29,656 nucleotides of DNA, from IMG/VR virus record IMGVR_UViG_2718218453_000002. One strand, 5' to 3'. Position numbers and translations under genes: made by a program. Below are positions 21,006 through 21,345 of the stretch, piece by piece. Within the stretch, counting starts at the first letter, position 1, and the number at the start of each line of letters is the position of its first letter. Origin of the DNA: a virus (lineage: Duplodnaviria; Heunggongvirae; Uroviricota; Caudoviricetes). The notes below the pieces were generated by a model that saw nothing but the letters and a program-made list of their open reading frames with translations, ran no database searches and was not told where the DNA came from.

Positions 21006-21118
21006 AAAAATCCTTATTCATCAAAAAAGAGATTCGGCAAATTCTGATTGTATAAAGTTTGCAGTTCATAAGCACACTATTTTCTTCAAAGTAAGCAATC
21101 GTTTATGATCCAGCGCGC

Positions 21119-21137
21119 AATACTTTCCCCGCCACGC
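21119..21137 (-). other. cos site (19-nt cohesive-end sequence, 186/P2 type)
   Basis: Minus-strand GGCGTGGCGGGGAAAGTAT matches the 186 cohesive end as I recall it (GGCGTGGCGGGGAAAGCAT) at 18 of 19 positions and is close to P2 (GGCGAGGCGGGGAAAGCAC); flanked by an inverted repeat CCCCGCC...GGGGCGG. Confidence 0.6.
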
Positions 21138-21345
21138 CTGCCCGCTTTACGGGGCGGTTTTAATGCAGTTGCATGAGCTCTCGGGATCCGCGCCAGCTCT
21201 GGCGGTGCACGGTCAGAACGGGCAACCCCTGCGAATGCAAAACCATGCACCTGTTGCATGCACGGCTAAAAACGGGGAAATCGCGGAAAAATGGCATAAA
21301 AAAACCGGCATTCACGGTGTCGGTTTGGGGCTGGTTTTGTCGCGA

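What the first reader, a model, noticed from the sequence alone, without database searches (positions are those of the whole stretch)
21110..21160. cos site of 186/P2 type locates the packaging end inside the prophage
The 19-nt sequence GGCGTGGCGGGGAAAGTAT (minus strand, 21119-21137) is one mismatch from the 186 cohesive end as I recall it, flanked by the inverted repeat CCCCGCC/GGGGCGG and, further right, repeated TGCATG-containing elements (21165-21260) that could be terminase-binding sites. This fixes the cargo cassette to the left of cos and the small unknown genes to its right.
Basis: partly seen in the sequence, partly recalled or inferred. Interest (0 to 1): 0.4.

Follow-up and report, generated by a model that had tools for sequence, protein, structure and literature searches.

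The report
186-type cos site of a prophage

Summary
The 19-mer GGCGTGGCGGGGAAAGTAT is real. It lies on the minus strand at 21120-21138, one base right of the stated coordinates. It is 18/19 identical to the annotated cohesive end of phage 186 and 16/19 to that of P2. It sits inside a 55-bp block (21113-21167) that matches the P2/P4/186 cos core at 49-51 of 55 positions. The linear records of 186, SEN1 and EtG end exactly at window 21139. The cognate terminase genes are present (97.8% and 92% aa identity to 186), and the context is an apparently intact 186-like prophage. I conclude this is the prophage's cos site, by homology and not by experiment. Two details need correcting. CCCCGCC/GGGGCGG is not a reverse-complement repeat. 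The real symmetry is GCGCGCA/TGCCCGC, the heptamers flanking the two predicted nicks. The TGCATG-type repeats are real (6 ATGCA/TGCAT pentamers, 0.25 expected) and form a second block conserved in P2, P4 and 186. That fits a terminase-binding role, which is untested. Conservation stops 7 bp left of the 19-mer, where the cargo begins. Cargo between portal gene and cos is a minority arrangement (9-14 of 90 loci), and this site was already suggested as a hotspot. Low novelty.

The parts
21120..21138 (-). 19-nt cohesive-end sequence 5'-GGCGTGGCGGGGAAAGTAT-3'. Predicted nicks are on the minus strand between 21139|21138 and on the plus strand between 21119|21120, giving 5'-protruding 19-nt ends.
   Evidence: 18/19 to 186 nt 1-19, annotated 'cos; top strand cut at 5' end and bottom strand cut at 3' end'. 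The 186, SEN1 and EtG records end at window 21139. The nick positions are inferred from the 186 annotation.
21113..21167 (.). 55-bp cos core: GCGCGCA + 19-mer + TGCCCGCTTTACGGGGCGGTTTTAATGCA
   Evidence: This is the block shared by P2 and P4 (52/55 between them). The window matches 186 at 51/55, P2 at 50/55, P4 at 49/55 and Midge at 52/55. It is the most conserved stretch in 110 unique IMG/VR cos loci. The '55-bp core' is cited in PMC5694545, PMC2231350 and PMC9594776.
21113..21119 (.). Left nick-flanking heptamer GCGCGCA. It is the inverted partner (6/7) of TGCCCGC at 21139-21145 and the last conserved bases before the cargo.
   Evidence: Nearly invariant in the cos loci surveyed. Every locus with cargo on the portal side keeps it and diverges immediately to its left.
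21139..21145 (.). Right nick-flanking heptamer TGCCCGC
   Evidence: (C/T)GCCCGC in about 95 of 105 unique loci.
21163..21175 (.). ATGCA-GT-TGCATG, the first pair of ATGCA/TGCAT elements, at the right edge of the core
   Evidence: Conserved at 80-90% or more in 112 aligned cos regions.
21191..21204 (.). GC-rich palindrome CGCCAG-CT-CTGGCG in the variable spacer
   Evidence: I16. Present in 186 and, as CGCGCC..GGCGCG, in P4. About 60-80% conserved.
21234..21263 (.). Distal conserved block AATGCAAAACCATGCACCTGTTGCATGCAC with four ATGCA/TGCAT elements. It is a candidate terminase (small-subunit) binding region (inferred).
   Evidence: Second conservation peak in 112 aligned P2-, P4- and 186-type cos regions. 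Pentamer enrichment.
21298..21323 (-). Terminator-like hairpin plus T7 run, positional homologue of 186 t95b. It would end the leftward DinI/Tum-like operon before cos.
   Evidence: Homology with the annotated 186 t95b. The stem is imperfect (5/6) and was not called by the scan.
16573..18342 (+). Terminase large (ATPase) subunit, homologue of P2 gpP / 186 Orf12
   Evidence: 97.8% aa identity to 186 Orf12 over 589 aa. PHROG terminase large subunit.
13655..14404 (-). Terminase small subunit, homologue of P2 gpM / 186 R
   Evidence: 92% aa identity over 216 of 249 aa. Annotated 'phage terminase small subunit' in E66.
18344..19354 (+). Portal protein, homologue of P2 gpQ / 186 W
   Evidence: phrog_68, E 1e-168. 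82.6% aa identity to 186 W.
19426..21005 (-). Two-gene cargo cassette (249 aa and 275 aa) lying between the portal gene and cos. It would sit at the extreme left end of the virion DNA.
   Evidence: phrog_8999 and phrog_13337, function unknown. No nucleotide match in phage records. Homology with relatives starts only at about 21110-21114.

Best explanation
Window 21113 to about 21263 is the cos (packaging and cohesive-end) site of an apparently intact 186-like (Eganvirus/Peduoviridae) prophage of E. coli.

Proposed mechanism, following the P2/186 paradigm:
1. After excision and replication, the prophage's own terminase recognises cos on the circular phage DNA. The terminase consists of the gpM-like small subunit (13655-14404) and the gpP-like large subunit (16573-18342).
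2. It makes two nicks 19 bp apart: plus strand 21119|21120 and minus strand 21139|21138.
3. It packages one genome length (about 30 kb) through the portal.
4. The virion DNA then carries 5'-protruding 19-nt ends. The left end reads 5'-GGCGTGGCGGGGAAAGTAT, followed by the cargo cassette and the portal gene. The right end stops at 21139 and carries the conserved flank.
5. After injection the ends anneal and are ligated.

Shown here: sequence identity, flank conservation, position, and presence of the terminase genes. Inferred: the exact nick positions (from the 186 annotation), that the ATGCA-rich block binds terminase, and that this prophage is inducible and uses the site.
For: - The 19-mer is 18/19 identical to the 186 cos and is unique in the window, with chance expectation 0.01.
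- The 55-bp core matches 186, P2 and P4 at 49-51 of 55 positions.
- The right flank 21139-21335 is 84% identical to the last 199 nt of 186.
- The linear records of 186, SEN1 and EtG end at window 21139.
- Among 110-112 unique P2/P4/186-type cos loci, conservation peaks exactly at 21113-21174 and again at 21234-21263.
- The terminase large subunit is 97.8% and the small subunit 92% identical to those of 186.
- The site lies between the portal gene and gpA, as in P2 and 186.
- 83% of window 10-25000 aligns with the isolated phage Midge at 91% identity.
- The near-identical E66 prophage is about 30.2 kb and has no annotated pseudogenes.
- The C-to-T change at position 17 also occurs, with genuine cos flanks, in 15 other loci. 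These include a whole GGCGCGGCGGGGAAAGTAT lineage, so the position tolerates T.
- P4, which is packaged by P2 terminase, shares nothing beyond about 7 bp on the left. The missing canonical left spacer therefore need not matter (PMC2231350).
Against: - No experimental end mapping exists for this prophage or for this exact 19-mer variant.
- The roughly 140 bp that separate cos from the portal terminator in P2 and 186 are replaced by unrelated cargo (14-16/60 identity). Longer cos flanks improve cosmid transduction in P2 (PMC9594776), so efficiency could be lower.
- The primary paper defining the minimal cos (Ziermann & Calendar 1990) could not be read. I therefore could not check which flank is functionally required.
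- Folded as a single strand, the region shows no unusual structure (z = 0.2). This is neutral for a double-stranded protein-binding site.
Confidence: 0.9

Rival explanations
1. The site is an inactive relic. The sequence descends from a cos site, but the prophage is defective, or the site is disabled by the position-17 change or by the cargo replacing the canonical left spacer, so it is no longer cut or packaged.
For: The exact 19-mer variant has never been tested. The canonical left spacer is absent. Only 3 of 5426 complete E. coli genomes carry this cargo-plus-cos arrangement. Flank length affects cosmid transduction efficiency (PMC9594776).
Against: All structural, lysis, replication and regulatory genes are present, and none is flagged as a pseudogene in the near-identical E66 prophage. 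T at position 17 recurs in 15 independent loci with conserved flanks. 9-14 of 90 P2-like viral contigs have non-canonical sequence immediately left of GCGCGCA. P4 is packaged without the P2 left spacer. A LexA box precedes a Tum-like gene, which suggests an intact induction circuit.
Confidence: 0.08
2. The ATGCA/TGCAT-rich block (21234-21263) and the small hairpins serve transcription and are not part of the packaging signal. They would act as terminators or regulatory sites for the flanking operons, and only the 55-bp core would be the cos signal.
For: Terminator-like hairpins were called at 21138-21157 (+) and 21260-21244 (-). The literature speaks of a '55-bp cos'.
Against: The block is conserved in P4, P2 and 186-type elements, whose neighbouring genes differ entirely (psu in P4, old in P2, orf97 in 186). 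The only function shared by these elements at this place is packaging by a P2-type terminase. In 186 the annotated terminator t95b lies elsewhere, corresponding to window 21298-21323. Longer cos flanks raised P2 cosmid transduction by more than 10,000-fold (PMC9594776).
Confidence: 0.3
3. The match is a chance resemblance, or it is the cos of a P4-like satellite and not of the prophage.
For: The degenerate 16-base pattern does give a few context-free hits in IMG/VR (L033, L084).
Against: Chance expectation in the window is 0.01. More than 150 bp of flanking homology to 186 is present. The neighbours are portal, terminase, gpA and a full set of P2-type structural genes, with no psu/sid/delta genes.
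Confidence: 0.01

Closest known systems
cos of coliphage 186 (U32222.1, nt 1-19 plus flanks)
   Same: 18/19 in the cohesive-end sequence, 51/55 in the core and 84% over about 197 bp of right flank. It has the same ATGCA/TGCAT elements, the same CGCCAG..CTGGCG palindrome and a t95b-like terminator. The terminase large subunit is 97.8% identical. It lies between the portal gene and the Tum/gpA side.
   Different: Position 17 is T, not C. In 186 the portal gene W starts 177 bp from cos and no gene lies between them. Here 1765 bp with two cargo genes intervene, and the 186 left spacer is absent. On the right the window lacks orf97 and has other small ORFs.
55-bp cos core shared by P2 and its satellite P4 (Ziermann & Calendar 1990, as cited in PMC5694545, PMC2231350 and PMC9594776)
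   Same: Same 55-bp block at 50/55 (P2) and 49/55 (P4). Same asymmetry: about 7 conserved bp on the portal side and 29 bp or more on the other. The distal ATGCA block is present in both.
   Different: The P2/P4 19-mer is GGCGAGGCGGGGAAAGCAC, 3 differences from the window. P2 carries its cargo (old, tin) on the opposite side of cos.
cos-proximal gpA-gpQ hotspot of P2-like prophages (Rousset et al. 2022, PMC9122126; PMC13586616) and the cosL-Q insertion site noted for phiRSY1-like phages (PMC5694545)
   Same: Variable cargo directly adjacent to cos, between gpA and gpQ. The sister cassette (WP_073507268/9) is listed in Rousset's table as 'hypothetical + hypothetical'.
   Different: Nothing qualitatively different. 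Here the cargo is on the portal side, which is the minority arrangement: 9-14 of 90 IMG/VR loci, against 76 with the canonical 173-194 bp spacing.
Phage lambda cos (cosQ-cosN-cosB)
   Same: It works alike: terminase makes sequence-specific staggered nicks that give 5' cohesive ends, with accessory binding sequences beside the nick site (general knowledge; PMC7617512).
   Different: Lambda has a 12-nt overhang against 19 nt here, the sequence is unrelated, and lambda packages from concatemers whereas P2/P4 prefer closed monomeric circles (PMC2231350). The window site is not a member of the lambda cos family.

Membership tests
P2/186-family cos site | 19-nt G+C-rich cohesive-end sequence of the form GGCG(A/T)GGCGGGGAAAGCA(C/T) | tested here: met
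   18/19 to 186 and 16/19 to P2. The deviating base (T17) recurs in 15 other genuine cos contexts.
P2/186-family cos site | 55-bp conserved core around the cohesive-end sequence (the P2/P4 shared block) | tested here: met
   Window 21113-21167 matches 186 at 51/55, P2 at 50/55 and P4 at 49/55. It coincides with the conservation peak in 110 loci.
P2/186-family cos site | Location between the portal gene (Q/W) and the replication gene A end of the genome | tested here: met
   Portal 18344-19354, cos 21120-21138, gpA 23092-25314. The spacing to the portal gene is 1765 bp, against the canonical roughly 190 bp.
P2/186-family cos site | Cognate P2-type terminase (gpP and gpM homologues) encoded by the same element | tested here: met
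   97.8% and 92% aa identity to the 186 subunits.
P2/186-family cos site | Mature virion DNA of relatives ends at the homologous position | tested here: met
   The linear records of 186, SEN1 and EtG end at the base aligned with window 21139. The Midge record is opened inside the 19-mer instead.
P2/186-family cos site | Terminase cleavage in vivo giving 19-nt 5' overhangs, and cos-dependent packaging | not testable with these tools
   Needs virion DNA end mapping or a cosmid transduction assay.
Lambda-type cos (cosQ/cosN/cosB) | 12-nt cohesive end with lambda cosN sequence, R-sites and an IHF site | tested here: not met
   By direct reading, the window sequence is the 19-nt 186-type cohesive end, not lambda's 12-nt one. 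No search with a lambda cosN pattern was run.
P4-like satellite cos | cos flanked by the satellite genes psu/sid/delta and int | tested here: not met
   The neighbours are the portal, terminase and gpA genes of a full P2-type prophage.

The most novel reading that the evidence does not exclude
The left edge of the cos core (GCGCGCA, 7 bp from the nick) is a precise and recurrent recombination junction. In every portal-side cargo locus examined, similarity to other phages ends exactly there. Here, identity to the ECE313-type prophages is 97.8% to the right of about 21112, while the two cargo proteins to the left are only 55-58% identical and the portal gene is about 80% identical at the nucleotide level. 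This would fit cargo swapping by joining of cohesive ends from different co-resident P2-like genomes, followed by a second crossover. That is the mechanism Rousset et al. 2022 proposed only as speculation. If so, cos would be both the packaging site and the engine of the hotspot.
Probability: 0.3. Interest if true: 0.45.

Novelty: new member of a known kind. Interest (0 to 1): 0.15.

Why it matters
Locating cos fixes the virion map of this prophage. The two-gene cargo cassette would be the first DNA at the left end, next to the portal gene, and the SOS-regulated small genes would be at the right end. It gives exact, testable predictions for the ends (21120 and 21138). It also shows that a P2-family cos tolerates unrelated DNA from 7 bp outside the nick on the portal side. 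That is useful for designing P2/186 cosmids and for understanding why the cos-proximal hotspot exchanges cargo so freely. Beyond that, the feature is textbook biology.

Tried and rejected
- The CCCCGCC/GGGGCGG 'inverted repeat' was rejected because the two words are complements, not reverse complements.
- Single-strand folding of 21105-21270 shows no unusual stability (z = 0.2).
- Covariation in the CCCG/CGGG mini-hairpin: 186 has a compensatory CCCA/TGGG, but the majority consensus pairs G with T, so support for a structure is weak.
- Rfam scan of 19300-23200 found no family at cos. It gave only sub-threshold GcvB and sR52 hits, which I treat as chance.
- A blastn search of the cargo plus left flank against phage records found nothing.
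- Pfam, NCBIfam and PADLOC scans of the cargo proteins gave no significant family. There was only a weak ZorB/MotB N-terminal hit and a faint DUF7947 hit.
- Ziermann & Calendar 1990, the Christie & Calendar 2016 P2 review and Lindqvist et al. 1993 are not held. The experimentally defined minimal cos and the packaging direction could therefore not be checked. I do not rely on my recollection of them.
- Accession searches in the literature for the cargo proteins gave no paper. They turned up only the inventory listing in Rousset's supplement.

Full report
**Observation**

The plus strand at 21113-21167 reads GCGCGCA ATACTTTCCCCGCCACGCC TGCCCGCTTTACGGGGCGGTTTTAATGCA. The reverse complement of the middle 19 bases, GGCGTGGCGGGGAAAGTAT, occupies 21120-21138 on the minus strand. 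It is the only place in the window within 3 mismatches of the 186 or P2 cohesive-end sequences. The numbers expected by chance are 0.01 and 0.00.

The GenBank record of 186 (U32222.1) annotates nt 1-19, GGCGTGGCGGGGAAAGCAT, as 'cos; cohesive end; top strand cut at 5' end and bottom strand cut at 3' end'. P2 (AF063097) annotates GGCGAGGCGGGGAAAGCAC as cosL. The window differs from 186 only at position 17 (C to T).

**Flanks**

A blastn search of 20950-21500 against phage records found 168 records. The linear records of 186, Salmonella phage SEN1 and Erwinia phage EtG all end at the base aligned with window 21139, the base directly next to the 19-mer.

I joined the right and left ends of 186, P2 and P4 and oriented them like the window. 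The block that P2 and P4 share (52/55 identical) corresponds to window 21113-21167. This matches the '55-bp cos core' of Ziermann & Calendar as cited in PMC5694545, PMC2231350 and PMC9594776. The window matches this block as follows:

| Reference | Identity over the 55-bp core |
|---|---|
| 186 | 51/55 |
| P2 | 50/55 |
| P4 | 49/55 |
| Midge | 52/55 |

To the right, 21139-21335 is 84% identical to the last 199 nt of 186. To the left of 21113, identity to 186 and P2 falls to 14-16 of 60, which is random level.

**Survey of related loci**

The 19-mer types were as follows:

| 19-mer type | Loci |
|---|---|
| P2/P4 type | 81 |
| 186 type | 33 |
| Rarer variants | 6 |

- **Conservation.** Column conservation over 110-112 unique loci peaks at 21113-21174. 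After a variable spacer of about 60 bp, it peaks again at 21234-21263 (AATGCAAAACCATGCACCTGTTGCATGCAC). Nothing is conserved to the left of 21112.
- **Nick-flanking heptamers.** GCGCGCA (left) and (C/T)GCCCGC (right) are nearly invariant and are 6/7 inverted relative to each other. They are the real symmetry around the cut.
- **ATGCA/TGCAT pentamers.** These occur 6 times in 21160-21265 against 0.25 expected, and this is the densest such stretch in the window. P4, P2 and 186 have entirely different genes next to this block (psu, old and orf97). Their only shared function at this place is packaging by a P2-type terminase. I therefore regard the block as part of the packaging signal, most likely a binding region for the small terminase subunit. 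This is an inference.

**The position-17 variant**

A stricter scan required T17 plus the left heptamer. It found 10 viral contigs and 5 genomic loci with genuine cos flanks. Most have GGCGCGGCGGGGAAAGTAT, for example in Rouxiella. Two (L136, L139) are identical to the window, including the cargo edge. T at this position is thus a natural polymorphism of working-looking cos sites. The overhangs of one genome are complementary to each other whatever the base, so annealing is unaffected.

**Context**

- The window is a 186-like prophage. 83% of positions 10-25000 align with the isolated phage Midge at 91% identity, and 80% with vB_EcoM-613R3 at 98.5%.
- The terminase large subunit (16573-18342) is 97.8% identical to 186 Orf12. 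The small subunit (13655-14404) is 92% identical, and the portal (18344-19354) is 82.6% identical.
- To the right of cos lie small ORFs, a DinI/Tum-like gene (22562-22792) and gpA (23092-25314).
- A perfect LexA box, CTGTATATTTATACAG, sits at 23000-23015 just upstream of that leftward operon. This mirrors the 186 p95-tum arrangement.
- In E. coli E66, a 2.9-kb test stretch (window 19300-22200) is 99.6% identical. There the prophage lies between yfiB and rplS, spans about 30.2 kb and has no annotated pseudogene. That length is close to the 30.6 kb of 186, so the genome fits the capsid.

**Cargo position**

In 186 and P2 the portal gene starts 177 and 168 bp from cos, with only a terminator between. 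In the window the spacing is 1765 bp and holds two minus-strand genes (19426-20175 and 20178-21005).

Of 90 P2-like IMG/VR loci with a portal gene left of cos, 76 have the canonical 173-194 bp. Fourteen have more, and 9 have at least 945 bp. All of the non-canonical ones keep GCGCGCA and then diverge.

In complete E. coli genomes, homology to relatives begins at window 21110-21114. Only 3 of 5426 genomes share the whole cargo-plus-cos arrangement. The ECE313 group carries a sister cassette at the same place (55% and 58% aa identity). Rousset et al. listed it in their gpA-gpQ hotspot inventory as 'hypothetical + hypothetical'. The cosL-Q position had already been suggested as an insertion hotspot (PMC5694545), and the cos-proximal hotspot is well described (PMC9122126 and PMC13586616).

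**Mechanism**

Following the P2/P4/186 paradigm, closed circular DNA is cut at cos to give 19-nt cohesive ends (PMC2231350). The 186 annotation specifies the nick geometry. From these I predict nicks at plus 21119|21120 and minus 21139|21138.

The left virion end would begin 5'-GGCGTGGCGGGGAAAGTAT and run into the cargo and the portal gene. The right virion end would carry the conserved 29-bp flank and the ATGCA block. Which end enters the capsid first could not be established here, because the primary papers are not held.

**Verdict**

Corrections to the finding:
- The coordinates are off by one.
- The claimed inverted repeat is not one.
- The real symmetric element is the pair of nick-flanking heptamers.

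Points added here:
- The functional region probably extends from 21113 to about 21263.
- The portal-side boundary of the conserved signal is only 7 bp from the nick, and the cargo begins exactly there.

The most interesting open reading is that cos ends themselves mediate cargo exchange. Rousset et al. proposed this as speculation. The sharp identity step at the core's left edge fits it, but nothing here demonstrates it.

Noticed in passing
window 19426-21005 (minus strand): The two-gene cargo cassette has no known function. The first product is 249 aa (phrog_8999), with a weak ZorB/MotB-like N-terminal match. The second is 275 aa (phrog_13337), with a faint DUF7947 match; distant relatives hit DUF7946 and DUF7947. 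RefSeq calls the second 'P-loop NTPase family protein' in E66. Homologues occur across Enterobacterales, Aeromonas and Chromobacterium. A sister cassette (55% and 58% aa identity) occupies the same site in ECE313-type prophages and is listed as 'hypothetical + hypothetical' in Rousset 2022's hotspot table. It is a candidate uncharacterised anti-phage system.
   Followed up: partly
window 23000-23015: A perfect LexA-box palindrome, CTGTATATTTATACAG, lies between the gpA stop codon and the leftward operon that contains the DinI/Tum-like gene (22562-22792). This mirrors the SOS-dependent p95-tum operon of 186, so the prophage is probably SOS-inducible through an antirepressor.
   Followed up: partly
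window 21163-21360 and 21173-21433 (plus strand): These ORFs are annotated as hypothetical proteins in RefSeq and phage records and have PHROG families (phrog_17882, phrog_6595). They lie on the conserved non-coding cos flank and run antisense through the t95b-like terminator. In 186 this stretch is annotated as non-coding. They are probably over-annotations propagated by sequence conservation.
   Followed up: partly
L009/L010 (Escherichia phage Midge, PV287706.1 ends): The deposited linear record is opened inside the 19-mer (…GGCGTGGCG | GGGAAAGCAT…), not at the 186 cut sites. The ends as deposited therefore do not correspond to the 19-nt cohesive ends.
   Followed up: no
L053, L133-L135, L137, L138, L140, L142, L145, L146: These loci show a third cohesive-end type, GGCGCGGCGGGGAAAGTAT, with fully conserved cos flanks. 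It occurs in environmental viral contigs, Rouxiella genomes and a gammaproteobacterial MAG. L143 and L144 carry a related variant, GGCGAGGCGGGGAAAGTAT.
   Followed up: partly
window 18000-25400 compared with L005 and L132: There is strong mosaicism around cos. The gpA side is 99% identical to the ECE313 and 613R3 prophages, the right cos flank is 97.8% (ECE313) or 90% (613R3), the portal gene is only about 80%, and the cargo differs in each. 613R3 carries a different 1005-bp gene on the portal side and a 942-bp gene on the other side of cos.
   Followed up: partly
window 19366-19390: A hairpin, AAGCCGCT-tgtt-AGCGGCTT, lies just after the portal stop codon, at the position of tQ/tW in P2/186. 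Its T-run is on the minus strand, so it may mainly terminate the cargo operon. The scan did not call it as a terminator.
   Followed up: no
window 28499-28514: A second CTGT-N8-ACAG match (CTGTTTGGAAAGACAG) lies just upstream of the integrase gene. Two such matches were found where 0.2 is expected. Its significance is unknown.
   Followed up: no
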